Below are positions 1 through 26,498 of a DNA stretch of 64,000 nt, piece by piece (the first letter of the stretch is position 1; each line of letters opens with the position of its first letter). Position numbers and translations under genes: made by a program. The notes beneath the pieces are model-generated. The model was given only the letters and a program-made list of their open reading frames with translations, searched no databases and was not told where the DNA came from. The stretch comes from a virus, in the IMG/VR virus record IMGVR_UViG_3300045988_180880, positions 319,950-383,949 of that record; one strand, written 5' to 3'.

Positions 1-3000
1 GAAGATCTAAAACTAGGAAAAGAAAAGGAATCTCTTATTGATAATCATAATCCAGAACTAGACCTAACGAGAATAGATCTTGAAGGGTTTAGAGATTTAT
101 CTTATAAAGAACAACTAGAGGTAGATTCTAAAAATGAATTAGATACTACTAGGATATCATTAAAGAAGACCACGGAAAATCCTGAATTATCTAATCACAA
201 GGAAAATCTTAAGAAAACTCCCGAAGAATTAGATAAATTAGGGAGTTATAAAGAGTCTTTGGGGAATGTAGAAGATAAACTAGAGGAGCTTAATGGTACT
301 AAGGTTAAGCTTAGAAATCCAGTAAGTGATATTGAACTCTCTAAAACCAAAGTATCTTTAGAGAGAACTGCAGAAGATAAGGAGTTAGAAACTTATAGGG
401 AAAATCTTAAGAAAACTCCCGAAGAATTAGATAAATTAGAGAATCACAAAGAATCTCTTAGGAGTGGGGAAGAATTAGAAAACCTACCTAAAGATAAAAT
501 AGCTCTTGAAGGTATTGCGGAAACATTAGAAGAACTAGGAAATACTAGAATAGACTTAGATGGTACTGAAGAATCTGAAATATTTACTTTAGAGGATTAT
601 AGAGAAAACCTAAGTGTAGAAGATAATAATTCTCTTGAAGATAAAAGGATAGACCTAGAAGATACAAAGGAGTCTGAACCTAAAGCGCTAGAGGATGAAA
701 GAATTGATCTAAATGGCACTAAAGAATCTGAGATATCTACTTTAGAGGATTATAGAGAAAACTTAAGTGTAGAAGATAATAATTCTCTTGAAGATACTAG
801 AATAGACCTAACAGGAACAAAAGAAGCTGAAGTATCCGAACTTGAAGATTATCTTGATGAATTAGATAATACAAAAGATTATGAAGCTTCTGAGTTAGAG
901 GATACTAGGATAGACTTAACTGGGACTAAAGAAGCAGAACCTGAATCTTTAGAAGACAAGAGAATAGACTTAGAGGATACTGAAGAATATGAATCGAGTT
1001 CTTTAGAGGATGAAAGGATAAATCTAGAAAGTACAGAGGAATTCGAACCTGGAAGTCTTGAAGATTTTATAGATAAACTTGAAGACTCTAGAGATACCGA
1101 ACTTGAAGATGAAATACTTGAACTTCCTGAAACTTCTGGAGATGAGTATGAAGGTTATAATCCATTAGGTCCAGATGAATTAGATAGTCTTGGTGGGAAT
1201 ATCAATAATTTCTATGATTCTCTTCTTGAAGTTCCTGAAACAGGTGATGCTCCTAGACAATCTGGGGATTATACTCCTCTTGGTCCAGAAGAATTAGATA
1301 GTCTTGGTGGAGATCTTGGAAATTTTTACGATTCTATTCTTGAAGTTCCAGAAGATACTGAACATATTATTGAAGAGCTAAATGATGATATTAAAGAAAA
1401 AATTCCTGAAGCACAAGTAGATGAAAGTCAAAAAGATTGGAAATATTTAAAGGAATTAACCGAAGATGATCTCTATAAAGAAACTATTCGTTTACTTAGT
1501 GAGAAAGAAGCTGGAGAGTGGGGTAAGAAAATGCAATCTTTAGTAAGTGCATATCTTAGTTCAGAAGCCATATCTCCTGATCGAGCAGAAGAATATATAA
1601 ATAAACTTGGAAAGGAGATCTTAATTCAACAAGAGTCTTCGAGAGTGGAAGGTCCTTCTATGAAATTACCAAAATTTGGATTAGAATCTCTTAACTTAAG
1701 TAATTATCTTAGGTGGACAGCTGAGAAAACTATTGGATGGACTGGAGTACATGGATCAGCGAGACAACTTCTTCTTAATGAAACAATAGCTGCACTTGTA
1801 GTAGCTAGAGATGAGTTAGAAAAATTATCTAAATCAAATCGATATAGATTACCTGGAAATGATAGAGGTTTATTAGGTGATTTAGTATCTGGAGGAGTTT
1901 CTGGTGCTCTTGATAACTTGGGAGATAAACTAGGTGATGCAGTTAATACAATAGTTGGGAGCAAATCTGTAGATATCTCTAATCCTATAAATAGACCAGA
2001 AAAAAATGAGCATAGAGATGGATGGGAAGAAGGAAATATACGACCATCAGGAAGTAATCCATTTCTACCAACACAAAGTCATTCAGAGTTTTCTCAAAAA
2101 GAAGGTAATCTATTATCCAAGATAACTAAAAGTAGTGGAAGTAGTGGGGATAGTAATAAATTCTGGAAAAAAGTAGGAAGTGCAGCAAAAGATATGCTTC
2201 TAGGCTCTAGCAGTGGAGAAACAACTTATAAATTTAAATCTAATTATGTATCTGGAAAAGGAATAAATATCACATTAGAGGAATTATGTGGAATTTCTGG
2301 CACAGATGATGCAAATACTGTAGAAGGATTGTATAATGTATTAAAATCTAGCCCATTTATTACTACTCCAGATAAATTTACCTCAACTGGATATTCAGAT
2401 TATAGAACTCAAACATTAGATACTAATGCATACTGGGAAGTTGTTTTAGAACCCTATGTAGGTCCTGAAAATGGAAATCTTAATTATCTTCCTGGAATTC
2501 ATGAAATCAATACTAGAAATATAGCTCAACACGGAGTAAATACTGCTTATAATAGATGGATTCCTTATGTTAGTTTTGATCTTCAAAAATCTAAATTAAC
2601 AAATAAAACACTCAATCTATATGATGGTGAAATCAGTTATCCTGTTTCAATGGAATTTACTAATGAATTTAGATTAACTATAGCTGACGATCAATATAAG
2701 TCTTGGAGACGATATTTTGAAGAATGTGCTAAAGCTGCAATTTATAATAGTGAAGGACATGATGAATCTTATTATAAAGAAGGCGGTACTGAAGGAGTTT
2801 TAGGATTAACTGCAATAGATACTAATAACGTATGTATTGCTATGTATAAAAATATATGCTTCAGATGTAGAATATACGTTATGACACCGCAATATAGTAC
2901 AATTCAAAAATTTGATTTACTTTTAGTAATGAAAGATTTTTCTGAAGAATATACAGGAGATATTGGAGATGGTGCAGGAGATCTTACAGTATCATTTAGT

Positions 3001-3141
3001 ATTGTAGGAGAGAATCCAAATGAAGGAGAAATTCCAAAAGTTAAAGTAATACAGCATAAAGCTCCTGATAATTCTTCAAAAACGGATTATGGTTCTATAG
3101 TAGAAAGTGGAGTAAATTCAGTAATGAAACTAATTAAATAA
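1..3141 (+). CDS. 5'-truncated large virion/tail-associated protein: acidic tandem-repeat N-terminal region plus C-terminal tail-tube-fold-like domain
   Basis: Frame 1 is open from base 1. The listed ORF 259..3141 merely starts at an internal TTG, so the true N-terminus lies outside the window. N-terminal part is E/D-rich repeats (LEDxRIDLxGTKExE). The C-terminal ~260 aa carries the same landmarks as the tube gene downstream (NAYWEVVLEP; EFRLTIADDQYKSWRRYF; GDLTVSFSIVGE). Lies directly upstream of the putative sheath. Confidence 0.6.
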   Translation, partial: EDLKLGKEKESLIDNHNPELDLTRIDLEGFRDLSYKEQLEVDSKNELDTTRISLKKTTENPELSNHKENLKKTPEELDKLGSYKESLGNVEDKLEELNGTKVKLRNPVSDIELSKTKVSLERTAEDKELETYRENLKKTPEELDKLENHKESLRSGEELENLPKDKIALEGIAETLEELGNTRIDLDGTEESEIFTLEDYRENLSVEDNNSLEDKRIDLEDTKESEPKALEDERIDLNGTKESEISTLEDYRENLSVEDNNSLEDTRIDLTGTKEAEVSELEDYLDELDNTKDYEASELEDTRIDLTGTKEAEPESLEDKRIDLEDTEEYESSSLEDERINLESTEEFEPGSLEDFIDKLEDSRDTELEDEILELPETSGDEYEGYNPLGPDELDSLGGNINNFYDSLLEVPETGDAPRQSGDYTPLGPEELDSLGGDLGNFYDSILEVPEDTEHIIEELNDDIKEKIPEAQVDESQKDWKYLKELTEDDLYKETIRLLSEKEAGEWGKKMQSLVSAYLSSEAISPDRAEEYINKLGKEILIQQESSRVEGPSMKLPKFGLESLNLSNYLRWTAEKTIGWTGVHGSARQLLLNETIAALVVARDELEKLSKSNRYRLPGNDRGLLGDLVSGGVSGALDNLGDKLGDAVNTIVGSKSVDISNPINRPEKNEHRDGWEEGNIRPSGSNPFLPTQSHSEFSQKEGNLLSKITKSSGSSGDSNKFWKKVGSAAKDMLLGSSSGETTYKFKSNYVSGKGINITLEELCGISGTDDANTVEGLYNVLKSSPFITTPDKFTSTGYSDYRTQTLDTNAYWEVVLEPYVGPENGNLNYLPGIHEINTRNIAQHGVNTAYNRWIPYVSFDLQKSKLTNKTLNLYDGEISYPVSMEFTNEFRLTIADDQYKSWRRYFEECAKAAIYNSEGHDESYYKEGGTEGVLGLTAIDTNNVCIAMYKNICFRCRIYVMTPQYSTIQKFDLLLVMKDFSEEYTGDIGDGAGDLTVSFSIVGENPNEGEIPKVKVIQHKAPDNSSKTDYGSIVESGVNSVMKLIK
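202..439 (+). repeat. exact 40-nt in-frame direct repeat
   Basis: gaaaatcttaagaaaactcccgaagaattagataaattag occurs at 202-241 and 400-439, encoding ENLKKTPEELDKL twice. Confidence 0.9.
541..1080 (+). repeat. in-frame degenerate tandem array of acidic 15-16 aa units
   Basis: Units of ~45-48 nt encode LED(x)RIDL(x)GT(K/E)E(S/A)E. A near-identical ~80-nt duplication lies inside the array (571-652 vs 724-804). Confidence 0.85.
1159..1353 (+). repeat. in-frame two-copy repeat
   Basis: Two ~80-nt copies encode (N/T)PLGP(D/E)ELDSLGG.(I/L).NFYDS(L/I)LEVPE. Confidence 0.85.
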
Positions 3142-5513: not shown

Positions 5514-7016
5514 ATGGCAAGCGTAGCAAGTTTAGTCCGCGGAAGTGACGGATACATGAAATTTATTGACTATCAAAGTACATATAAAGATAATAATAAA
5601 GAATTCCTTCGTGGTGACATGTGGGAACTTCAATTCATTAATGTACCTAAGATAAATAATTGTCTTAGTAAAACTTTGTAAACTGCTGGAAGATCAAGTA
5701 AAGATAAATCAGCAAAAATAGATAAAAAATCTATTTCTCAACGACTATTAGCAAAGAAAAGAAATAGCCATAGATTTCTTTTATGATATAGTCTAAACAT
5801 AGAACAAATGTTTGAGTTTATTTCCCTGGTACTGATATTTTCAATGCTAGATTAAATGCCGTTCAGGTAGGTATTGATTATAGTGTATCAGGTTTTGAAA
5901 AGAGAATGCGTGGTAATTATACTATCATTCAGAAGACAGGTCAAAACACAGCTGGAACCCTGTCGTTGGCTTTTGTAGATAAGGAAGATCAGGCAATTAC
6001 TTACTGGTTTGATAATTTAAAAGTTGTCCATTAAGAGATTAAAAGTTCCTTAATGAATCTTTGTGAACTGCTGGAAATTTTAATCGCTCAAGAATGATAA
6101 AAACTAAGAGCGGAAAAATAATCAGCAGAAATAGATATGATTCTATTTTTCAACGACTAAGTACAAAGAAAGAGGATAAGCCATAGTTCCTCTTATGATA
6201 TAGTCTAGTATGATTTAAAACAAAAACCATAAGGACTATCGCCAGAAAATTGCAGATCGTGATACTAAATATTCTTTCAGAAAGGATGACTTAGTATGCG
6301 ACCTTAGATTAATCTTAACTAACTCAAGCCGTATCAAAGTTCGTACTCTTAATTTCTATAACTGTATTCTTCAGGATGCACCGATTGATGAAAATGGGCA
6401 GACTGAGGACGGAACCGATTAATAGCTTAGTCGCTTAAATAATAAAATTTAAGAAAATTATACTAAAATGCTGGAAAAATCTTGGTTATACCAAGTATAA
6501 ATCAGCAAAAACTATTAAAAATAGTTTCTCAACGACTAAATGTATAACTTAAGAAGTATTAATTCTTAAGATGATATAGTCTATAATATATTAATGTATA
6601 TTAACAAATGCGAGCAGATATCCAAGTCAGCTTTTTCAAATGAAGAAGCATAAAGTAATATAAACTTTATGAAAAATTCTATTAAAATGCTGGAATATCA
6701 AATAGATAATCAGCAAAAATTAGAAAAGATCTAATTTCTCAACGACTAAATATAGAACTAAGTTTGAAATATAATTTAGATGATATAGTCTATTCATTGA
6801 TAAAAATAATTAATGACTTTAAAGCAATTTGAACATTTTGGAAAATTTCATGGTGTTTTCTACAAGAATTGCTGGAAAATTTGTATCTTTGTATACAAAT
6901 AATCAGCATCCTAGATATTAACATAAATCTAGGTTCAACGACTATGTATGTAGACTGAGGAAATTCCTTAGGTGATATAGTCTGTCATGAGGTGAAATTC
7001 ATTGATTAACGTATGA
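5514..7016 (+). CDS. tail tube protein (T4 gp19-like), split by five group I introns
   Basis: join(5514..5653,5815..6016,6234..6419,6611..6634,6816..6836,~7005..7016). The spliced product is ~194 aa: ...RGDMWELQFINVPKI|VYFPGTD...AITYWFDN|DYRQKIADRD...GQTEDGTD|RADIQVSF|TLKQFEH|(INV). It is collinear with T4 gp19 landmarks as I recall them (PNLFQVEI; GFMNRKI..DDWTVTVMNDE..KFVDW; NEIQTFEVTLALDYWE). The six-frame track has no ORF at all in 5506-7086. The last exon is uncertain. Confidence 0.75.
5654..5814 (+). ncRNA. group I intron 1 (ORF-less, 161 nt, no P2)
   Basis: P1 is ctaagat/gtcttag (5647-5653/5662-5668) with a U5653-G5662 wobble at the 5' splice site. P3 ctttg/caaag (5674-5678/5752-5756). 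P4 tgctg/cagca (5684-5688/5710-5714). P7 gacta/tagtc (5743-5747/5789-5793). P9 aaacat/atgttt. Terminal G5814. The classical P/Q/R/S blocks are ctgctgg, aatcagca, tcaacgacta and gatatagtct. Confidence 0.85.
6017..6233 (+). ncRNA. group I intron 2 (ORF-less, 217 nt)
   Basis: P1 gataat/gttgtc (6011-6016/6023-6028; U6016-G6023 wobble). P2 cattaag/cttaatg (6029-6035/6049-6055). P3 ctttgt/acaaag (6059-6064/6163-6168). Core blocks: ctgctgg 6068-6074, aatcagca 6120-6127, tcaacgacta 6150-6159, gatatagtct 6197-6206. Extended P5 cgctc/gagcg. Terminal G6233 restores the frame. Confidence 0.8.
6420..6610 (+). ncRNA. group I intron 3 (ORF-less, 191 nt)
   Basis: P1 cgat|taa / ttagtcg (6416-6422/6427-6433; U6419-G6430 wobble; tetraloop tagc). 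P2 cttaaat/atttaag (6434-6440/6447-6453). P3 tatac/gtata (6459-6463/6542-6546). Core blocks: tgctgg 6469-6474, aatcagca 6500-6507, tcaacgacta 6529-6538, gatatagtct 6573-6582. Terminal G6610. Confidence 0.8.
6635..6815 (+). ncRNA. group I intron 4 (ORF-less, 181 nt)
   Basis: P1 gcttt|ttc / gaagaagc (6630-6637/6642-6649; U6634-G6645 wobble; loop aaat). P2 cataaag/ctttatg (6649-6655/6665-6671). P3 ttctat/atagaa (6677-6682/6752-6757). Core blocks: tgctgg 6688-6693, aatcagca 6708-6715, tcaacgacta 6739-6748, gatatagtct 6782-6791. Terminal G6815. Confidence 0.8.
6837..7004 (+). ncRNA. group I intron 5 (ORF-less, ~168 nt; 3' boundary uncertain)
   Basis: P1 gaacat/gtgttt (6831-6836/6853-6858; U6836-G6853 wobble). 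P3 tctaca/tgtaga (6859-6864/6949-6954). Core blocks: tgctgg 6870-6875, aatcagca 6901-6908, tcaacgacta 6935-6944, gatatagtct 6974-6983. P5 atttgtat/atacaaat and P6 cctagat/atctagg. Candidate terminal G at 6989, 6991, 6994, 7004 (used here) or 7011. Confidence 0.65.
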
Positions 7017-7170
7017 AAGAACTTTTGATAATATTTAAAAAAATAACTTAATAAACTAGAAGTATCTAATTTATTATTTCTTATGATTGCAAGGAAGGGT
7101 GGATCTGATCAATCTGCCCTTCTTCATAAGAAATATATTAGATATTTCCTTAAAAAAAATTGCAATCAAT

Positions 7171-8013
7171 ATGAAACTTAGAGCAAAAGATACTGAAAGT
7201 TTTATTCAAAAAAGTAAAGATAAATATGGTGAAGATGCTTTAGATTATTCTGAAGTAAACTATATTGATAAATTAACTCCTGTAAAACTAATATGTAAGA
7301 AATGTGGGAATATATTTTATCAATCACCAGCAGAACATTTAAGAGATAGAAAGAAAATATCTTGTCCTAAATGTGCAGTAATAGATTCCAGAGAAAGAAG
7401 GTCTATTAAACAGAAAGAAGTTTGGTTAAGGAAATGTAAAGATAAGTTTGGAGATAAATTTGATTACTCTAAAGTTAATTACATAAATAATAAATTAGAT
7501 GTATGGATTTATTGTAATAGTTGTAAAAAATGGTTTAAACAATCTCCACATCATCATATTAGAAATATTCATGGATGTCCTTTCTGTGCAATGAAAGAGA
7601 AATCTGGATATGAATTTATGGTTGAGAGTTATCTTGAATATTTAGTAAAAAATGATAAAACGTTATCATATAATTCAGAATACAGTATTTTAAATAGGAT
7701 AGCGGGAAGGAATTCTAACAAAATAATGATAGATTTTAAATTAAATATAAATAACTTAGAATATTGGATAGAAGTTAATGGTCAGCAACATTACAAATTT
7801 ATAAATTTCTTTCATAAAACAAAAGAAGATTTCCAAAAACAATTAAAAAGGGATGAAAATGTTAGAGAATACTGTAAAGAAAATAATATAATTCTCATAG
7901 AAATTCCATATACTTACAATACATATGAGAAAATATCTGAAGTTCTAAGAAGAATTTTAATTGGTGGTGAATCTCCAAATATAATAGTTCAGCCAAAAAT
8001 AATACAACCATAA
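7171..8013 (+). CDS. free-standing homing-endonuclease-like protein (two Zn-finger repeats + Vsr/DUF559-like PD-(D/E)XK C-terminal domain)
   Basis: Two tandem repeats of the pattern KYG(E/D)..DYS.VNY...V.I.C..C...F.QSP..H.....CP.C. The C-terminus IDFKLN..LEYWIEVNGQQHY...RDENVREYC..NNIILIEIPY matches the DF...IE.dG..H..Rd pattern of Vsr-like endonucleases. The listed ORF starts at TTG 7087; I prefer ATG 7171 (MKLRAKD...). Confidence 0.65.
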   Translation: MKLRAKDTESFIQKSKDKYGEDALDYSEVNYIDKLTPVKLICKKCGNIFYQSPAEHLRDRKKISCPKCAVIDSRERRSIKQKEVWLRKCKDKFGDKFDYSKVNYINNKLDVWIYCNSCKKWFKQSPHHHIRNIHGCPFCAMKEKSGYEFMVESYLEYLVKNDKTLSYNSEYSILNRIAGRNSNKIMIDFKLNINNLEYWIEVNGQQHYKFINFFHKTKEDFQKQLKRDENVREYCKENNIILIEIPYTYNTYEKISEVLRRILIGGESPNIIVQPKIIQP

Positions 8014-8069: not shown

Positions 8070-8585
8070 ATGAACCTACTAGATATATTACTCCCACTCC
8101 CTAGACGAAGAAGAGAAAAGGAAGAATTGAAAAAACTAGAGCCAGAAATAAAAAATCTTGAAGAAAAACTTGGATTAATTGGAAGAACTGGAACAGAAGT
8201 TTATTATGATCCACTCTATGAACGAAATAGAGGAAGAAAATATGATCTTAAAGGCCGAAAGGAATACCTAGAAGACCTCAGAAAACGATTAAACAATGGG
8301 TATAAGAGTTCGAATGTAATACGAGCTAGTGGATATTTTAGTCCAGGTAATTCTAATGAAAAAGATACTTTTAACCCAATCATAAAAGAATTACCTAAAC
8401 CAAGTAAGGTAGTGTATGTAGTATTAATAAGAAAAACTATTGATATCCCAAAAACGATAAAAATAGAGAACAGTACTGAATATAAAATAAAAAGTACAAA
8501 CTCTGAATGTGATAATATAGAGGATTACTATATTATAAAAGAATTGGATGAAAACGCTAAAAAATTTATTAAATCTCTAATATGA
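8070..8585 (+). CDS. hypothetical protein (MxLLxILLP family)
   Basis: 171-aa ORF. The N-terminus MNLLDILLP...EEKLGL...YYDPLYERN is paralogous to the 9579 ORF. ATGA overlap with the next gene suggests translational coupling. Confidence 0.7.
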   Translation: MNLLDILLPLPRRRREKEELKKLEPEIKNLEEKLGLIGRTGTEVYYDPLYERNRGRKYDLKGRKEYLEDLRKRLNNGYKSSNVIRASGYFSPGNSNEKDTFNPIIKELPKPSKVVYVVLIRKTIDIPKTIKIENSTEYKIKSTNSECDNIEDYYIIKELDENAKKFIKSLI

Positions 8586-9505
8586 TCATATTAAGAAAAT
8601 ACCCAGAGGAACAGAAAGAATTTAGTATACTTTCAGAAATATCTCAATTGGGTTTAAGGAAAGGAACGAAAAATTATATCAGGAAACAAAAAAGAGATGT
8701 GGTGAACAAATTAATTCAAAATAAACGAGATTTTCTTGCAAAAACGAAGAAGACAGAAAGAAAATTGACTAATCTTCGAAAAGAAACAAAAGAGAATGAA
8801 TTAATAGCCAATAATCTGAAAAAAGAAGCTAATAGAGTAAACACTGATATAATACCCGATAATAAATTTTCTAAACTAGTACATCAGCCTAAAGGAGATA
8901 AATCCTATATTCTCGATAAAGAAAAGAGAAATCTACTTAAGCAAATGTCTAATGATAAAAATTTGGATAAAGCTAGTAGAGAGTTAGCCAGATCAAGTTC
9001 GGCCAAAGATGCAATTATAAATCTTAACTCTGATGCAATAGGAAAAGACACCCCGTTTGTTGCCCATGAACTAGGTCATGTTAAAAATAGTAAAAAATCT
9101 ATTAATTCTGCAATTCAAAAACTAGCTGATAAATCTAATAATAGTAAAGGAATATTAGCTGATATTGGGAAAAGAACTATTGGAATTCAAGAAGAAAATA
9201 ATGCCTGGAAAAATGGAATAAAGGATTTAAAAAAGGCTGGTGCAACGAAAGAAGAGATTAAACATGCCAAAAGTCTAGAAAATGCTGCAGTAGATACATA
9301 TAGAAAAGGAAATAGTTTAAGAAATAACTTAAATGAAAAGCTATTAAATAAATTACATCCAAAAGAAATAGATAACTATAAAGTATTTCCTGGATCTCAT
9401 AAAGAAGAAAAAGATTTAATGGAACTTTTTGGAGATAAAGGAAGAACTGAAAGACAGAAATATAATTTAAGAAGAAAAATAATAAATAAAAGGAAATCTA
9501 AATAA
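8582..9505 (+). CDS. leader-family protein with HExxH metallopeptidase-like motif
   Basis: N-terminus MIILRKYPEEQKEFS. HELGH at 9065-9079, followed by EENNAWKNGIKDLKKAGATKEE. This block is shared with the 10430, 14828 and 20729 products. Confidence 0.75.
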   Translation: MIILRKYPEEQKEFSILSEISQLGLRKGTKNYIRKQKRDVVNKLIQNKRDFLAKTKKTERKLTNLRKETKENELIANNLKKEANRVNTDIIPDNKFSKLVHQPKGDKSYILDKEKRNLLKQMSNDKNLDKASRELARSSSAKDAIINLNSDAIGKDTPFVAHELGHVKNSKKSINSAIQKLADKSNNSKGILADIGKRTIGIQEENNAWKNGIKDLKKAGATKEEIKHAKSLENAAVDTYRKGNSLRNNLNEKLLNKLHPKEIDNYKVFPGSHKEEKDLMELFGDKGRTERQKYNLRRKIINKRKSK

Positions 9506-9578: not shown

Positions 9579-9752
9579 ATGAGCCTACTAAATATATTAC
9601 TTCCTAGACAAAGGATGATAAATCAAGAAATAAAAAGTCTTGAAGAAAAACTTGGATTAACCGAAAGAGATACAAAAACTCTTTTCTATGATCCACATTA
9701 TATTAGAAATAAATCATTTCAAACAAGAAAAGATTATCTAAACTATAACTAG
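9579..9752 (+). CDS. hypothetical protein, short paralog of the 8070 gene
   Basis: ATG 9579 (MSLLNILLPRQRMINQEIKSLEEKLGL..FYDPHYIRN), 57 aa. The listed ORF 9546 begins at a TTG inside the upstream hairpin, which I rejected. Confidence 0.55.
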   Translation: MSLLNILLPRQRMINQEIKSLEEKLGLTERDTKTLFYDPHYIRNKSFQTRKDYLNYN

Positions 9753-10429: not shown

Positions 10430-11228
10430 ATGATAATCAAAAGAAAACTGTTTAGTAAAAAAAGAGGAGAATAAAAACTTCAATGACACTAGTTCAAAAG
10501 CAAAAGGAACTGCTTTATATCTTGGAGGTGCGGTAGCGGGTCAAGGTATCGCTGCACCTATAATGATGAAACATATGCAAGACGAACCCTCAGAAGAATC
10601 TGCAAAAATAGCTGAAAAACTAAAAAGATTAGCTTCTAGACGAGGACATAAAGTAGATAATATTACATATACTGGAATGGGACCTGCATATCAAAATAAT
10701 AAAATTTATACAAGTGGAACAAAAGCAGCTGATGTTCTTTCACATGAAATGGGACATGCTCACTATGATAAAAGAAAAGTAAAATCAGTAAGTGATGCTA
10801 TTGGTAAAGTTGCTCATAAAGCTTATCTAAAAACTGGTGGAATGTTGAATCATACAGTTCTAGCTCCTACAGCAGGAATAATAGCAGGTGTTAGATCAGG
10901 TAAAAAAGCAGCAGAAAAAGAAGCAGCCGGAGAAAAAGAATCAAAACTCTCCAGACATAGTGGATGGGCATCTGGTTTAGCTGTTCAATCTCCAGGGCTA
11001 GTATCAGAGGCTATGGCAAGTAAACATGGTCTAGATTTAATGAAAAAAGCTGGTGCCTCTAAGAAATTAATGAAAGCTAGTCGAAAAAACCTAGGTGTAG
11101 CTTTAGGAACTTATGCTGGAGTTGCTGTAACTAATGCAGGAATGTCAGAATTAGCTAGAGGAATTGCATATAGAAAGAAAAAGAAAAAATTAGAGAAGGA
11201 AAAAGATAAAAAGAAAGATGATAAATAA
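10430..11228 (+). CDS. leader-family HExxH protein, reading frame interrupted at an A7 run
   Basis: ATG 10430 gives MIIKRKLFSKKRGE, with a stop at 10472-10474. The +1 frame is open from 10455 through the listed ORF 10563..11228 (..KKEENKNFNDTSSKAKGTALYLGGAVAGQGIAAPIMMKHMQ...). HEMGH at 10743-10757. Removing one A from the run at 10457-10463 restores a family-typical protein. Confidence 0.55.
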
Positions 11229-22973: not shown

Positions 22974-25900
22974 ATGGCTGCAGAAGATATAGAAAATAAA
23001 GTAAGAAAAATGTCTTCCCAGAAACCAGAGGATGGGAAAGACTTACAACAACTCCAAGAAGCACAAAACCAGATTGTTCAGATAAATGCAGAACGTCAGG
23101 GAAACTTACAAACAGCTAGACTCGAAAATAATGCTGATGCGGCTAATAATGAAACTATGAGTCAAGCTGTAGAGATGGCTGCACTTGGAGGATTAGGTGG
23201 AGCAGCAGTACAACAACAAGTACAGGCAATGAATCCACAAACTCAGGCTGTCTTAGGAAAATATGGACTTGGACAACCTAAAGTACAGCGAACATCTTCA
23301 AGGAGTGTACAAGTAACTCCACAGAAGATAACAATAAATAATAACACTACGAACACAACGACTAATAACGTTGCTGTTCCCGCTGCTAATATTGGTGGTC
23401 CTGTCCAAGGGAGAACATTAGCAGTAAAACAAAATCCAGATGAAGGACAGGCTCGATTTAAAACTTGGATATCTAATGCCTTTGCTAAACAGAATCAACA
23501 AGCAGCGGCCAGAGAAAAAGAATATCAACGTCGTGAGTGGTCCTTGACAAGAAGTACTAATAAATTAATGAAACACTTATCTGACTTAGGAAAGAGTGTT
23601 TCAGAGAGATTAGACCCTAGGAAATTAGCATCTTCGGTAGGTGGACAATTTAAAACTATTCTCTTCCTCTTTGGTACTATGTTCTTAGCAAAAAATTGGA
23701 AAAGAATTATTAAATTTGCTGCTAATGTAGAGACTTTCTTTTTTGGAGAACCTGATCCAAATGATCCCAAAGCTCCAAGAGGCAGATCTGGATTTTCTAA
23801 AATGTTAATTAGTTTATTTGGAGGAGATCCTAATAGCAATAAATCTACTATACTAGGTTCATTAAAAGACTTGCTTTATACAGGTGATGAAAAGCGTCCT
23901 GGAGCATTCGACTACTTATTTTTAAAGATAAAGAATTATTTTTCAGAAGGTGCAGAGGCGATAAAAAATTTAGAGTTGCCAAAAATAGATACAGATGATC
24001 TTTTAGGTTCTTTAAAAAATATAGTTGGATATTTTGGAAACGTTATATCTACGCTATTTACTGGAGCAGATGGATTAAAAAAAGGAATTGATAATCAGAT
24101 AAAAGAGGTTTCTAAAAATTCTAAATATGGATTAACTAGTGATGGTAAGAAAGATTTATCGTGGATAGATGATCGTGCGGATGTTAATGAAAAATTATCA
24201 AATTTTTATACACAACATTTTAGAGAATCTTATGGAAATTTAAAAGGTTATGAAGACTTAATAGATTCTAAAGGTAGGTTAACTGATATTGCTAGAGGAG
24301 ATATAATTCATACAAGGGATAAAGATGCTAATAATTATGTAAGATATTCAGATGTTACTGAATCAGGAGAATTGACTGGTACTGTAGGTTCTACATTTAG
24401 AGCTTCTAATGCTGTATCAAGTATGTTAGGTGATAAAAAAACTGTCAATACTGTTGGAGTTACTAGTTTACTCGGAGATATTGAAAAGGCAGTAGATAAA
24501 AATGAAGAATCAGGAGATAAGAAGGGTATAGCTATCGAATCTTCAGAATTTTTAACAAGAACAGGACTAACTTTAGATGATATTGATGAATTGAAAAAAC
24601 GTGGAGATATCACTGAAGGTAGTTTTAAATATGTTTTAGAACCAAAAACTTTAGAGGAATTAGCTTTTGAGTATAAAAATCAACCCCCAGGACCAGAAGA
24701 GGCTGCATTAAAAGCTGGATTACAAACTCATTTAGAAAATGTTACTGGTATAGGGGATTTAAAGAAATGGGGTTTTAGATTGGCAGGGTTAGCTGGAGGT
24801 ATTGCACTTTGTTTTGTTCCAGGAGGACAAGCATTAGCAATTCCTTTGATAGCTGGTGGATTAACTGCTGGTGAGTTAACTGCGCAGGCATCTCAATCAC
24901 CATGGGTTAGAGGTGGATTAGCTGCTTTAAATACAAAAAAAGCAAGAGTACTTCCTAGATATACTATGAGATTAGTTGATGTAAATGACCCTAGACCAGG
25001 AGTAGATTTAGGTCGTATGGGAGATATGTCAACAATTACTGTACCTAAAAATCAGAAAGATGCTACTATAGTTAATGGTTATAGAATTAAAAAAGGGGTA
25101 ATAAATAGGATTAAAGACAGAATTGGTGGTTTTAAAACGAAAGATAAAGATGGAAATGTATCTTATAAATCATTTGATATAACTGATTCTGAAATAAGAA
25201 CTAATATGGATAAGCATGTTAGAGGCATACAAACAGCTCTTCATGGAAAAGTGGCTGAAAATGTAGATTATGATTTGAATAATTACAAAGGCATCCAAAA
25301 TGTACTGGATCTTAAAGCCAAAAATCGTGCTTATGAACAAGAAGTATGGAATAATTCTCCTATGAAAAAAAGTGGCGAATATATAGGTGATGCAGTAGAT
25401 GGTGTGAAAGGGTATATTACAGGAAATAGACCACCTGAAAAGATAACTGATGAGGTGAGAAAGGCTAGAATACTAAAAGCCATGGATTTTGCTATGAAGG
25501 AACTTGGGATGACTAAAGAACAAGCTGCCGGGTTAGTTGGTAATTTTTTAAGAGAGTCTCAATTAGTTACTACTGCTAAGAATCCAGACTCTCCAGCAAC
25601 TGGAATAGCTCAGTGGTTAGGAGTTAGAAGAAGAGCTTTTGAACATGGTAAACTTAGTGAGAAAGAAAAAAAAGCTGGATGGAAACATTATGATGGACCA
25701 GGTTCAGGTAAATCTTTGGGAGATGCATCCTTTGAAGAACAACTTCAATTTGTTAAGTGGGAAATGGAAAATATTCCGGCTTATAGAGAAGGTTTGAAGA
25801 AAATAAAAGCTTCAAAAGATCATCTTGAAGCAGCTCGAAATGTTTTTGGATATTATGAATTTTCAGCAGGTCCAGAAAAATCAGCTCAACATATGGAAGA

Positions 25901-26498
25901 TAAAGGGCAAGATGGTTGGGGATCCTTGAAAAAAGGAGAAAATTTTGCAGGAGATGCTTTATTAACTTACAACTCTTTTAAAGGTGATACTCTAGAAAAT
26001 ACCAATACTAATTCCACAAATTCTGAAGAGTCTATTTATATGGCTGATGCTTCATCTACAACTCCAGATAATTATGTAGAACAGAGAACAGATAAAGGAT
26101 CTAGTATATCTACTTATGATTGGAGTACTGCAGGTGTTAATTCTTTTGGAAGTGATTCTGGATTGATAATGGCTCAGAGTAGTATTTTAGCTCCAGAAAA
26201 AGTTACACCAACTACACCAACTTCAGAAAAATCTATTCCAGGTAATACTTCAGAATCTGCTGGACGAGAATTAATAGCTGATGCAGAAAAAGATAAGACG
26301 GAAGATCTTTATACAAAAGTTTCTGATATTAATGAAAATATAAAACTTCTTTCAAAAACATCTATAGCACAAGCAGAAGCAATTAATAATGTTTCTACAG
26401 CCATAGCATCTCTTAAGTTTGGAGGAAATATAAATATGGGTGGTGGAGATGGAAGAACTAAAGTACAGAGTATTACTACTCCCCCTTATAGAGGATAA
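22974..26498 (+). CDS. tail tape measure protein with internal tail-lysozyme (peptidoglycan hydrolase) domain
   Basis: 1174 aa, the longest ORF in the tail module. It has Gln/Ala-rich and coiled regions and a hydrophobic Gly-rich stretch (LAGLAGGIALCFVPGGQALAIPLIAGGLTAGE). The motif EQAAGLVGNFLRESQL...ATGIAQWLGVRRRAF fits the phage tail lysozyme family pattern (xAGIxGNxxxES...GIxQW). Confidence 0.8.
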   Translation: MAAEDIENKVRKMSSQKPEDGKDLQQLQEAQNQIVQINAERQGNLQTARLENNADAANNETMSQAVEMAALGGLGGAAVQQQVQAMNPQTQAVLGKYGLGQPKVQRTSSRSVQVTPQKITINNNTTNTTTNNVAVPAANIGGPVQGRTLAVKQNPDEGQARFKTWISNAFAKQNQQAAAREKEYQRREWSLTRSTNKLMKHLSDLGKSVSERLDPRKLASSVGGQFKTILFLFGTMFLAKNWKRIIKFAANVETFFFGEPDPNDPKAPRGRSGFSKMLISLFGGDPNSNKSTILGSLKDLLYTGDEKRPGAFDYLFLKIKNYFSEGAEAIKNLELPKIDTDDLLGSLKNIVGYFGNVISTLFTGADGLKKGIDNQIKEVSKNSKYGLTSDGKKDLSWIDDRADVNEKLSNFYTQHFRESYGNLKGYEDLIDSKGRLTDIARGDIIHTRDKDANNYVRYSDVTESGELTGTVGSTFRASNAVSSMLGDKKTVNTVGVTSLLGDIEKAVDKNEESGDKKGIAIESSEFLTRTGLTLDDIDELKKRGDITEGSFKYVLEPKTLEELAFEYKNQPPGPEEAALKAGLQTHLENVTGIGDLKKWGFRLAGLAGGIALCFVPGGQALAIPLIAGGLTAGELTAQASQSPWVRGGLAALNTKKARVLPRYTMRLVDVNDPRPGVDLGRMGDMSTITVPKNQKDATIVNGYRIKKGVINRIKDRIGGFKTKDKDGNVSYKSFDITDSEIRTNMDKHVRGIQTALHGKVAENVDYDLNNYKGIQNVLDLKAKNRAYEQEVWNNSPMKKSGEYIGDAVDGVKGYITGNRPPEKITDEVRKARILKAMDFAMKELGMTKEQAAGLVGNFLRESQLVTTAKNPDSPATGIAQWLGVRRRAFEHGKLSEKEKKAGWKHYDGPGSGKSLGDASFEEQLQFVKWEMENIPAYREGLKKIKASKDHLEAARNVFGYYEFSAGPEKSAQHMEDKGQDGWGSLKKGENFAGDALLTYNSFKGDTLENTNTNSTNSEESIYMADASSTTPDNYVEQRTDKGSSISTYDWSTAGVNSFGSDSGLIMAQSSILAPEKVTPTTPTSEKSIPGNTSESAGRELIADAEKDKTEDLYTKVSDINENIKLLSKTSIAQAEAINNVSTAIASLKFGGNINMGGGDGRTKVQSITTPPYRG

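What the first reader, a model, noticed from the sequence alone, without database searches (positions are those of the whole stretch)
6611..6836. Two micro-exons (24 nt and 21 nt) sandwiched between group I introns
Exon 4 (6611-6634, RADIQVSF) and exon 5 (6816-6836, TLKQFEH) are each flanked on both sides by introns. P1 of introns 4 and 5 uses 5-6 of those few exon nucleotides. Each micro-exon must therefore serve as the 3' exon of one ribozyme and the 5' exon/P1 substrate of the next. This implies either an ordered splicing pathway or strong constraints on these codons. Such short internal exons are not something I know from phage group I intron genes.
Basis: inference. Interest (0 to 1): 0.65.

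Follow-up and report, generated by a model that had tools for sequence, protein, structure and literature searches.

The report
Tiny exons between phage self-splicing introns
A tail-tube-type gene of a gut jumbo-phage-like genome is cut by five very small self-splicing (group I) introns, leaving internal exons of only 24 and 12 bases; this is real but an extreme case of something already known.

Summary
The core observation holds, with two boundary corrections. The gene at 5514-7038 (+) is split by five ORF-less group I introns of one family (161, 220, 191, 190 and 175 nt). Splicing gives a 195-aa protein that matches more than 370 uninterrupted ~195-aa homologues (best 90% identity).

Exon 5 is 6825-6836 (12 nt, QFEH), not 6816-6836. 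The last exon starts at 7012 (YERTFDNI*), not 7005. Four lines of evidence support these junctions:
- a profile-guided spliced alignment;
- an intron-less allele in a relative;
- P1 helices with a U·G pair at each 5' splice site;
- P10 helices that exist only for the corrected 3' splice sites.

The same 24-nt and 12-nt exons occur in 25 related IMG/VR contigs. Sixteen of those carry a sixth intron and a further 21-nt exon, and one probably has seven introns with a 9-nt exon.

In the 12-nt exon, the P10 partner of intron 4 and the P1 partner of intron 5 overlap by 3 nt. Some coupling is therefore plausible, but an obligatory order is not required.

Abundant ~206-nt group I introns are already published for Jug gut phages. 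Short exons between group I introns are also known (Twort 23 nt; mitochondria down to 1 nt). No RNA data could be consulted.

The parts
5514..5653 (+). Exon 1 (140 nt) of the tube-family gene, from the ATG to ...PKI (ends in phase 2)
   Evidence: Spliced aligner. Homologue alignment gives PKIVY(F/Y)PG. Relative L043 lacks this intron and is contiguous here.
5654..5814 (+). Intron 1, group I, 161 nt. The guide GUCUUAG (5662-5668) pairs with cuaagaU. The terminal G is at 5814.
5815..6013 (+). Exon 2 (199 nt).
6014..6233 (+). Intron 2, group I, 220 nt. It has a weak P1 (gaU/GUC plus AAUU/AGUU) and a P10 of GACU/AGUU.
   Evidence: Relative L040 lacks this intron.
6234..6419 (+). Exon 3 (186 nt), ending ...EDGTD.
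6420..6610 (+). Intron 3, group I, 191 nt. The guide GUCG (6430-6433) pairs with cgaU (6416-6419). The P10 guide GCUU (6425-6428) pairs with exon 4 GAGC (6612-6615). An in-frame TAA lies at 6420-6422.
6611..6634 (+). Micro-exon 4, 24 nt (cga gca gat atc caa gtc agc ttt = RADIQVSF).
   Evidence: Present in 24 loci, counting the window. Relatives L044 and L053 lack intron 3 and read through this junction.
6635..6824 (+). Intron 4, group I, 190 nt. The guide GAAGC (6645-6649) pairs with gcuuU (6630-6634). Its first 7 nt, UUCAAAU (6635-6641), can pair with exon 5 AUUUGAA (6827-6833) as a P10. The terminal G is at 6824, not 6815.
   Evidence: P10 is as good in only 0.2% of random 10-mers. Rfam did not list this copy.
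6825..6836 (+). Micro-exon 5, 12 nt (caa ttt gaa cat = QFEH). It encodes the invariant F185-E186 and the nearly invariant H187.
   Evidence: The sequence is identical in all 26 loci that carry introns 4 and 5.
6837..7011 (+). Intron 5, group I, 175 nt. The guide GUGUUU (6853-6858) pairs with gaacaU (6831-6836). The directly adjacent P10 guide UUUCAUG (6846-6852) pairs with exon 6 UAUGAAA (7012-7018). The terminal G is at 7011, not 7004.
7012..7038 (+). Exon 6, 27 nt including the stop (YERTFDNI*).
   Evidence: The intron-less allele in L067 confirms it.
7171..8013 (+). Free-standing HNH-type homing-endonuclease-like ORF (280 aa) just downstream. It is a candidate trans-acting mobility factor for the ORF-less introns; that role is inferred.
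   Evidence: phrog_559 at 3.5e-35 and Pfam DUF4379 zinc finger. Its presence varies among relatives and is mostly seen next to intron-rich tube genes.

Best explanation
**What it is.** A contractile-tail tube-family gene (5514-7038, + strand) lies in the tail module of a roughly 30% GC genome that is probably Jug-like (a jumbo gut phage). Five small, ORF-less group I introns of one paralogous family have colonised it. Three of them sit within 36 coding nucleotides near the 3' end. This leaves internal exons of 24 nt (6611-6634) and 12 nt (6825-6836).

**How it most likely works.**
- Each intron folds into a minimal P1-P9 core (P2 is seen in introns 2-4 only).
- Each intron picks its own 5' splice site with its own guide sequence, through a U·G pair at the end of P1.
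- Each intron aligns its 3' exon through a short P10 and ends in a terminal G.
- Removing all five restores a 195-aa reading frame.
- The guides differ (GUCG, GAAGC, GUGUUU), and so do P3, P6 and P8. The introns can therefore splice independently, most simply 5' to 3' as they are transcribed.
- The 12-nt exon is just long enough to hold the P10 of intron 4 (nt 3-9) and the P1 of intron 5 (nt 7-12), which overlap by 3 nt. Some kinetic interplay is expected there.

**How it arose.** The micro-exons are by-products of repeated intron insertion at closely spaced, highly conserved sites. They are not functional modules. Relatives show that each site is independently occupied or empty.

**Shown:** the intron family, the junctions, the restored ORF, structural covariation, and presence/absence polymorphism.

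**Inferred:** that splicing actually occurs for this gene, that the introns are autonomous, the order of splicing, and the role of the neighbouring HNH gene.
For: **Junctions and product.**
- The spliced product is 195 aa and colinear with more than 370 uninterrupted homologues, the best 90% identical.
- My spliced aligner used only three constraints: the exon ends in U, the intron ends in G, and fit to a homologue profile. It returns the same six exons.
- The HMM score is best for this product (379.8 bits).
- The intron-less allele in L067 is contiguous across both downstream junctions.

**The introns are group I.**
- Rfam RF00028 hits four of the five.
- My covariance model (its training set included the five window introns) hits exactly these five in 64 kb, at E <= 4e-17.
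- P4, P6, P7 and P8 are 92% paired across 31 introns, against 34-50% when the partners are slid. Sixteen of 25 pairs carry compensatory changes.
- P5, P6 and P8 hairpins are predicted in all five introns and a P9 hairpin in four (none for intron 2); each has a P1 with U·G.

**Protein identity.** The AlphaFold model of the 90%-identical homologue matches contractile tail tube proteins in the PDB, with E down to 5e-8.

**Relatives.** 25 IMG/VR loci carry the same 24-nt and 12-nt exons, and every insertion site is empty in at least one relative.

**Literature.** Jug phages carry about 18.5 group I introns per genome, about 206 nt each. Junction reads support splicing for 37 of 76 predicted introns (PMC12880540).
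Against: - There is no RNA evidence for this gene.
- No protein identical to the spliced product is in the protein database.
- All Rfam scores are below the gathering cut-off (27-36 bits against 50), and intron 4 was not listed.
- The introns are very AT-rich (21-31% GC) and lack stabilising peripheral domains, so they may need protein help.
- P1 of intron 2 has only 3 exon base pairs.
- The P10 of intron 4 is offset by 2 nt from the splice junction rather than starting at +1.
- The alternative 3' site G6815 would also stay in frame, in the window and in all variants seen.
- Assignment to Jug phages rests on GC content, intron style and the contig sizes of relatives, not on sequence comparison.
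Confidence: 0.82

Rival explanations
1. One reading: exon 5 is 6816-6836 (TLKQFEH) and the last exon starts at 7005 (INV*). Alternatively, G6815 is used as an alternative 3' splice site alongside G6824.
For: G6815 and G7004 are both G residues downstream of the P7 core. The 6816 variant stays in frame, and it also stays in frame in relatives whose segment reads ATTTTAAAG, ATTTTGAAG or ACTTTATTAAAG.
Against: - None of the 79 ungapped homologues, or the 65 aligned ones, has a 3-residue insertion here or ends in INV. They all continue Y-x-R-x-F-x-N-x.
- The HMM score is 18 bits lower.
- G7004 lies inside the predicted P9 stem of intron 5.
- The 9-12 nt before G6824 vary among relatives, while exons 5 and 6 are invariant.
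Confidence: 0.05
2. Splicing is obligatorily ordered or cooperative. Neighbouring introns must be removed in a fixed sequence, or they form hybrid ribozymes, because the micro-exons are too short to serve two ribozymes at once.
For: - In the 12-nt exon, the P10 partner of intron 4 (6827-6833) and the P1 partner of intron 5 (6831-6836) share 3 nt.
- All five introns share the same P4 and P7 sequences.
- Hybrid-ribozyme exon skipping is proposed for the two similar Twort introns that flank a 23-nt exon (PMC10136302).
Against: - P1 of each intron needs only its own upstream exon.
- Four P10 base pairs of intron 4 (6827-6830) remain free even when P1 of intron 5 is formed.
- Guides, P3, P6 and P8 differ between neighbours. 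In engineered tandem introns, such differences suppress exon skipping (PMC10136302).
- P10 is often dispensable; that study found that disrupting it reduced splicing but did not abolish it.
- Co-transcriptional 5'-to-3' splicing would avoid the conflict without any dedicated mechanism (inference).
Confidence: 0.15
3. Exon skipping is a significant outcome and yields tube-protein isoforms without exon 4 and/or exon 5, as regulation or as a cost of the introns.
For: - Skipping of a 23-nt exon in Twort orf142 and of a 34-nt exon in Coxiella 23S rRNA has been observed (PMC10136302).
- The skipped products here would stay in frame, because exons 4 and 5 are 24 and 12 nt and introns 3-5 are all in phase 0.
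Against: - The skipped residues include the invariant R176, F185 and E186 and the nearly invariant H187. They form the last two beta-strands of the tube fold, so such isoforms are unlikely to be functional.
- Guide sequences do not pair with a U at the end of the wrong exons.
Confidence: 0.1
4. The gene is a decaying pseudogene, or the inserts are not spliced. The fragments are dead, or tube function is supplied from elsewhere.
For: No RNA data exist for this gene. Rfam scores are below the gathering cut-off. In-frame stops follow every 5' splice site.
Against: - The exons are intact, in frame and 90% identical to uninterrupted homologues.
- The same architecture is kept in 25 independent contigs.
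- Intron helices are maintained by compensatory changes.
- Every intron has a matching P1 and a terminal G.
- Introns of this type are shown to splice in Jug phages (PMC12880540).
Confidence: 0.03

Closest known systems
Group I introns of Jug (jumbo gut) phages (PMC12880540; preprint PMC12363816)
   Same: - GC is about 30%, and the phage is described as T4-like.
- The genomes carry many small ORF-less group I introns (reported mean about 206 nt; 161-220 nt here) and many free-standing HNH genes.
- Essential genes are fragmented.
- Relatives of the window lie on contigs of up to 400 kb.
   Different: - The paper illustrates terL and nrdD. Its text never mentions exon sizes or the tail tube (0 hits for 'exon' and 'tail tube').
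[quoted passage not shown] The copies here are ordinary splicing introns with P1, a terminal G and a restored ORF.
- Whether the window is a Jug genome could not be tested by sequence.
Staphylococcus phage Twort orf142: three group I introns, with a 23-nt exon between introns 2 and 3 and exon skipping (Landthaler & Shub 1999, as reported in PMC10136302)
   Same: A phage protein-coding gene carries several related group I introns and a very short internal exon that is both the 3' exon and the P1 substrate of neighbouring ribozymes.
   Different: - Here there are five introns (six or seven in relatives) in a 588-nt coding sequence.
- There are two to four consecutive micro-exons, down to 12 nt (probably 9 nt in L053).
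- The introns are much smaller and lack the peripheral helices of IA2 introns.
- Exon skipping has not been tested.
Mitochondrial mini- and micro-exons flanked by group I introns (fungal cox1 etc., PMC10352661; placozoan 1-nt cox1 exon between two group IB introns, PMC5436844)
   Same: Exons shorter than 4 codons arise by insertion of group I introns at neighbouring sites of a highly conserved gene. They are found only by profile-guided gene modelling.
   Different: Those are organellar genes with large introns that often carry ORFs and depend on maturases. Here the host is a bacteriophage structural gene and the introns are minimal and ORF-less.
Free-standing homing endonucleases that mobilise ORF-less introns in trans (T4 mobE/I-TevIII, PMC2790892; the cyanophage psbA case is cited from memory)
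   Same: An HNH-type endonuclease gene lies next to, not inside, an intron-bearing gene, and its presence among relatives is variable.
   Different: No cleavage site or activity is known here. The link is only positional and statistical.

Membership tests
Group I intron (Rfam RF00028) | P1 helix in which the last exon nucleotide is a U paired with a G of an internal guide sequence | tested here: met
   All five introns have it: cuaagaU/GUCUUAG, gaU/GUC, cgaU/GUCG, gcuuU/GAAGC and gaacaU/GUGUUU.
Group I intron (Rfam RF00028) | Terminal G at the 3' end of the intron, with removal restoring the reading frame | tested here: met
   G is at 5814, 6233, 6610, 6824 and 7011. The product is 195 aa and colinear with homologues.
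Group I intron (Rfam RF00028) | Conserved core helices P3-P8 with the P4-P6 and P3-P7-P8 arrangement, supported by covariation | tested here: met
   P4, P6, P7 and P8 are 92% paired, and 16 of 25 pairs carry compensatory changes. P3 was read by eye and co-varies between sites: CUUUG/CAAAG, UUAUAC/GUAUAA, UUCUAU/AUAGAA, UCUAC/GUAGA (sequences).
Group I intron (Rfam RF00028) | Score at or above the family's gathering threshold (50 bits) | tested here: not met
   Scores are 27.1-36.1 bits for four copies, and intron 4 is not listed. The model is long (253 positions) and these introns lack several of its elements.
Group I intron (Rfam RF00028) | Guanosine-dependent self-splicing | not testable with these tools
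   This needs in-vitro transcription and splicing or RNA reads.
GIR1-like 'small internal group I-like ribozyme' (the label used for Jug phage introns in PMC12880540) | A branching or capping ribozyme nested inside a larger twin-ribozyme intron that is not itself a splicing intron (from memory of the GIR1 literature) | tested here: not met
   These elements lie directly in the coding sequence, have P1 with U·G and a terminal G, and their removal restores the ORF. There is no enclosing intron.
Tandem group I introns flanking a short exon (Twort orf142 type) | Two or more group I introns in one gene, separated by an exon of a few tens of nucleotides or fewer | tested here: met
   Exons of 24 nt and 12 nt lie between introns 3/4 and 4/5.
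Tandem group I introns flanking a short exon (Twort orf142 type) | Exon-skipping products | not testable with these tools
   No RNA data are available.
Contractile-tail tube protein family (T4 gp19-like fold) | Tube-protein beta-barrel fold | tested here: met
   The AF2 model of P0001 (90% identical to the spliced product; pLDDT 75) matches T4, P1, KP1, phiKZ, AFP and PVC tube or tube-like chains, with E down to 4.7e-8 and TM about 0.5-0.6. Whether it is the main tube or a tube-like baseplate or terminator protein was not resolved.
Contractile-tail tube protein family (T4 gp19-like fold) | Sequence-profile match (Pfam, PHROG, PDB) | tested here: not met
   There are no hits in Pfam, PHROGs or PDB sequences, or by tblastn against GenBank phages.
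Jug (jumbo gut) phages | GC of about 27-30%, with many ~200-nt group I introns and free-standing HNH genes | tested here: met
   GC is 0.28-0.32. There are five introns of 161-220 nt and an adjacent HNH gene.
Jug (jumbo gut) phages | A genome of 360-402 kb and high nucleotide identity to curated Jug genomes | not testable with these tools
   Only a 64-kb window is available. Relatives lie on contigs of up to 400,901 bp. The curated genomes are not in the searchable collections.

The most novel reading that the evidence does not exclude
The 12-nt exon acts as a shared substrate for two ribozymes. It cannot hold the full P10 of intron 4 and the P1 of intron 5 at the same time, because they overlap by 3 nt. 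The 3' end of this gene would then be processed by an obligatorily ordered, mutually dependent cascade of three to five minimal ribozymes. In that case the tube gene of these phages would be a natural multi-ribozyme timing or quality-control device for tail assembly. Its 156-220-nt introns would also be among the smallest natural splicing group I ribozymes.
Probability: 0.15. Interest if true: 0.7.

Novelty: new member of a known kind. Interest (0 to 1): 0.5.

Why it matters
- **Annotation.** Gene callers see only a 55-aa stub (5514-5681) and fragments. An essential structural gene of a very abundant group of gut phages is therefore invisible unless exons of 12-24 nt are modelled. The same holds for at least 25 IMG/VR contigs.
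- **RNA biology.** This is a compact natural system of five to seven related minimal group I introns in under 1.6 kb. Exons of 9-30 nt separate neighbours with the same P4/P7 core but different guides. The system could show how tandem ribozymes avoid cross-talk and exon skipping, a question so far addressed mainly with engineered Tetrahymena constructs.
- **Intron evolution.** The presence/absence pattern among relatives gives a clean record of repeated intron gain at a conserved hotspot.
- **Limits.** It is a quantitative extreme of known phenomena, not a new mechanism.

Tried and rejected
- **Rfam at gathering threshold** over the whole window gave 0 hits. Rfam in E-value mode over the whole window also gave 0 hits. 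Only the 1.8-kb sub-search exposed the four sub-threshold matches.
- **First hand-made exon model.** The homologue alignment corrected it.
- **Structure prediction.** I used the 90%-identical homologue P0001 instead.
- **Sequence searches of the protein** gave nothing informative in Pfam, PHROGs, PDB sequences or GenBank phages.
- **Exon-exon junction strings** returned nothing in IMG/VR and JGI contigs. A control string known to be in an IMG/VR locus was also missed, so these negatives carry no weight.
- **Limits of my gap-free spliced aligner.**
  - It produced spurious N-terminal 'introns' in divergent homologues that carry indels. I ignored these because they have no intron core.
  - It produced an implausible 5-nt exon or a 411-nt intron in L067, L044 and L053. 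I re-read this as a type-A intron, a 9-nt exon (GAAAATGGT) and a type-B intron.
- **MAFFT alignment.** The register is inconsistent in P3, so I left P3 out of the pair counts.
- **Papers.** The Twort paper (PMC22036) is not held, so I cite its facts through PMC10136302. The literature search for the smallest known group I intron was uninformative.
Full report
**What is at the site.**
Between 5514 and 7038 on the + strand, four short motifs recur five times in the same order: TGCTGGAA, AATCAGCA, TCAACGACTA and GATATAGTCT.
- Rfam's group I intron model (RF00028) matches four of the five copies when the 1.8-kb region is searched alone. The E-values are 4e-7 to 2e-4 and the scores 27-36 bits, below the 50-bit gathering score. 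It finds nothing at gathering threshold.
- I built a covariance model from 31 introns of this family, taken from the window and related contigs. It hits the 64-kb window exactly five times, all in this gene, at E = 4e-21 to 4e-17. The five window introns were in its training set, so their scores follow partly from construction; what the search adds is that nothing else in the 64 kb matches.

**Exon structure.**
I joined the coding pieces by hand and searched the protein database. This returned 377 proteins, nearly all about 195 aa and uninterrupted, with the best 87-90% identical. Their alignment fixed every junction.

I then wrote a spliced aligner with only three constraints: an exon ends in T, an intron ends in G and is 90-1800 nt long, and the product fits a gap-free profile of 79 homologues. 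It returns:

| Feature | Coordinates | Length |
|---|---|---|
| Exon 1 | 5514-5653 | 140 nt |
| Exon 2 | 5815-6013 | 199 nt |
| Exon 3 | 6234-6419 | 186 nt |
| Exon 4 | 6611-6634 | 24 nt |
| Exon 5 | 6825-6836 | 12 nt |
| Exon 6 | 7012-7038 | 27 nt, including the stop |

The introns are 161, 220, 191, 190 and 175 nt, and the product is 195 aa.

Exon 5 is QFEH (12 nt), not TLKQFEH (21 nt). The last exon is YERTFDNI*, starting at 7012, not INV* from 7005.

An HMM of the homologues scores the candidate products as follows:

| Product | Score (bits) |
|---|---|
| Corrected model | 379.8 |
| Exon 5 from 6816, exon 6 from 7012 | 372.5 |
| Products that skip exon 4 and/or 5 | 344-360 |

Relative L067 lacks introns 4 and 5. 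It reads ...caagtaagttttcaatttgaacactacgaaagaacttttgataatatttaa without interruption, so it is the empty-site allele for both junctions.

**RNA structure.**
- Each intron has a P1 helix whose last exon base is a U paired with a G of an internal guide. Each has predicted P5, P6 and P8 hairpins (a P9 hairpin is predicted for four; RNAfold gives none for intron 2) and a terminal G.
- Across 31 introns from the different insertion sites, P4, P6, P7 and P8 are 92% paired. This falls to 34-50% when the 3' partners are slid by 1-3 columns. Sixteen of 25 pairs show changes on both sides.
- P3 also co-varies between sites (CUUUG/CAAAG, UUAUAC/GUAUAA, UUCUAU/AUAGAA, UCUAC/GUAGA). I read this by eye, because the MAFFT register is inconsistent there.
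- P10 supports the corrected 3' splice sites:
  - Intron 5 carries UUUCAUG directly 5' of its P1 guide, complementary to the first 7 nt of exon 6.
  - The first 7 nt of intron 4 (UUCAAAU) are complementary to nt 3-9 of exon 5. Only 0.2% of random 10-mers from the window pair this well.
  - Intron 3 pairs GCUU with nt 2-5 of exon 4.
- These are therefore ordinary but minimal and very AT-rich (21-31% GC) splicing group I introns. They are not nested 'group I-like' ribozymes.

**The micro-exons as substrates.**
- Exon 4 (24 nt) gives nt 2-5 to the P10 of intron 3 and nt 20-24 to the P1 of intron 4.
- Exon 5 (12 nt) gives nt 3-9 to the P10 of intron 4 and nt 7-12 to the P1 of intron 5. These two helices compete for 3 nt (6831-6833).
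- The three guides are different (GUCG, GAAGC, GUGUUU). They do not place a U·G pair at the end of the wrong exon. P3, P6 and P8 also differ between neighbours.
- I infer that each intron can splice on its own. Co-transcriptional 5'-to-3' removal would avoid the one overlap, so a fixed order is possible but not required.
- In engineered tandem Tetrahymena introns, making the P1/P10 elements of the two introns different was what suppressed exon skipping (PMC10136302). The same logic fits here.
- In-frame stop codons follow every 5' splice site. Intron 3 begins with TAA, and intron 4 has TGA at nt 7-9. Unspliced RNA would therefore give only truncated peptides.

**The gene.**
- Pfam, PHROGs, PDB sequences and GenBank phages gave no sequence match.
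- The AlphaFold model of homologue P0001 (pLDDT 75) matches contractile tail tube and tube-like proteins of T4, P1, KP1, phiKZ, AFP and PVC, with Foldseek E down to 4.7e-8.
- The gene follows a 784-aa ORF that may be the sheath, judged by position only. It precedes a tape-measure-like ORF at 22974-26498.
- The 12-nt exon encodes the invariant F185-E186 and the nearly invariant H187, which lie in the last beta-strands. This fits homing elements that settle in the most conserved sequence.

**Relatives.**
IMG/VR holds 66 loci with this gene.
- About 30 more distant homologues are uninterrupted.
- 26 close relatives carry four to seven introns.
- Five share the window's architecture.
- Sixteen have a sixth intron of a second structural class at codon 168, giving exons of 140, 199, 165, 21, 24, 12 and 27 nt.
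- L053 most likely has seven introns and exons of 156, 9, 12, 30, 12 and 27 nt at the 3' end.
- A Logan/ENA relative (L005) has a 14-nt exon between two introns, at sites 9 nt and 1 nt away from those in the window.
- Every site is empty in at least one relative.
- Introns 4 and 5 always occur together, in 25 relatives plus the window. This would be expected if they move as a block by co-conversion (inference).
- Flanking exon sequence is invariant in intron-bearing alleles and varies at synonymous positions in empty ones. The intron-bearing genomes are closely related, so this is weak evidence of constraint.

**Context and novelty.**
- The window has 28-32% GC, and relatives lie on contigs of up to 400 kb.
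- A 2025 preprint, published in 2026, describes Jug gut phages: 360-402 kb, 27-30% GC, T4-like, infecting Bacteroides/Phocaeicola. They average 18.5 group I introns of about 206 nt per genome and carry many free-standing HNH genes. Metatranscriptome junction reads support 37 of 76 predicted introns (PMC12880540).
- The window fits that description, but I could not compare sequences.
- The paper does not mention the tail tube or exon sizes.
- Short exons between group I introns are already known:
  - 23 nt in Twort orf142, with exon skipping, and 34 nt in Coxiella 23S rRNA (PMC10136302);
  - mini-exons shorter than 4 codons occur 'regularly' in mitochondrial genes (PMC10352661);
  - a 1-nt exon lies between two group IB introns in placozoan cox1 (PMC5436844).
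- Phage surveys I could read report at most three introns per gene (PMC11878797).
- The finding is therefore real and, for a phage, extreme in intron density and exon size. It belongs to a known kind.

**Limits.**
- Self-splicing, splicing order and exon skipping are untested.
- The alternative acceptor G6815 is disfavoured but not excluded as a minor site.
- The role of the downstream HNH gene (7171-8013) in moving these ORF-less introns is inferred only from its position and its distribution among relatives.

Noticed in passing
window 7171-8013 (+): A free-standing HNH-type homing-endonuclease-like ORF (phrog_559 at 3.5e-35; treble-clef zinc finger DUF4379) lies about 130 nt downstream of the tube gene. 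Homologues follow the tube gene in about 20 of 26 intron-rich relatives, in two divergent versions (about 98% and about 42% identity). They follow it in only 4 of about 30 intron-less relatives.
   Followed up: partly
L050:3616-3812, L040:3666-3874, L044:4150-4342 (relatives, not the window): A second structural class of small group I-like intron has the core ...GTAAGTAAATTCGGTGAAAG...GTAACGAATAAAGACTTAC...TATATTCTG. It occupies codons 168 and 173 of the same gene in relatives, giving a 21-nt exon (16 loci) or a 12-nt exon next to the micro-exons discussed here.
   Followed up: partly
L053:3451-4670 (also L044, L067): This relative probably has seven introns in the tube gene, with exons of 156, 9, 12, 30, 12 and 27 nt. 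The 9-nt exon GAAAATGGT (ENG) lies between a type-A and a type-B intron, and the type-B guide GCCGUU pairs with aauggU. The product would be 194 aa (one residue shorter).
   Followed up: partly
L035:3499-3654 and L038:3496-3653: Introns of 156-158 nt at codon 165 keep P4, P6 and P7 but seem to have almost no P8 hairpin between P3' and the GATATAGTC element. If active, they would be unusually reduced group I introns.
   Followed up: no
L073 (Staphylococcus phage vB_StaM_PB50, OR770614.1:42733-42851): The only GenBank phage DNA match to the region is 72% identity over about 120 nt of the intron 3 core. It lies between a 75-aa 'terminase large subunit' fragment and a 'homing endonuclease' gene. 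This suggests a related small intron in terL of a cultured 274-kb Staphylococcus phage.
   Followed up: partly
window 6420-6422, 6641-6643, 6032-6034, 5679-5681, 6900-6902: The exon reading frame meets a stop codon 1, 7, 19, 26 and 64 nt into introns 3, 4, 2, 1 and 5 respectively. Gene callers therefore see only a 55-aa ORF (5514-5681) for this gene.
   Followed up: yes
window 569-903 and 1057-1110 (inside ORF 259-3141): The 960-aa ORF upstream of the putative sheath gene has a very acidic N-terminal half. It is built of 153-nt tandem repeats (2.2 copies, 76% match) and LED-x-RIDL-x-GTKE-like units. It has no family match.
   Followed up: partly
window 8070-8585 and 9579-9752; 8582-9505 and 10563-11228: Two small ORFs share a 43%-identical N-terminus (MNLLDILLP...EEKLGL...YDP). 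Each is followed by an ORF with an HE(L/M)GH metalloprotease-like motif. This looks like a duplicated two-gene cassette downstream of the HNH gene.
   Followed up: partly
tool behaviour: Exact-pattern scans of viral contigs missed a 23-mer that is present in L067, a locus fetched from that same collection.
   Followed up: yes
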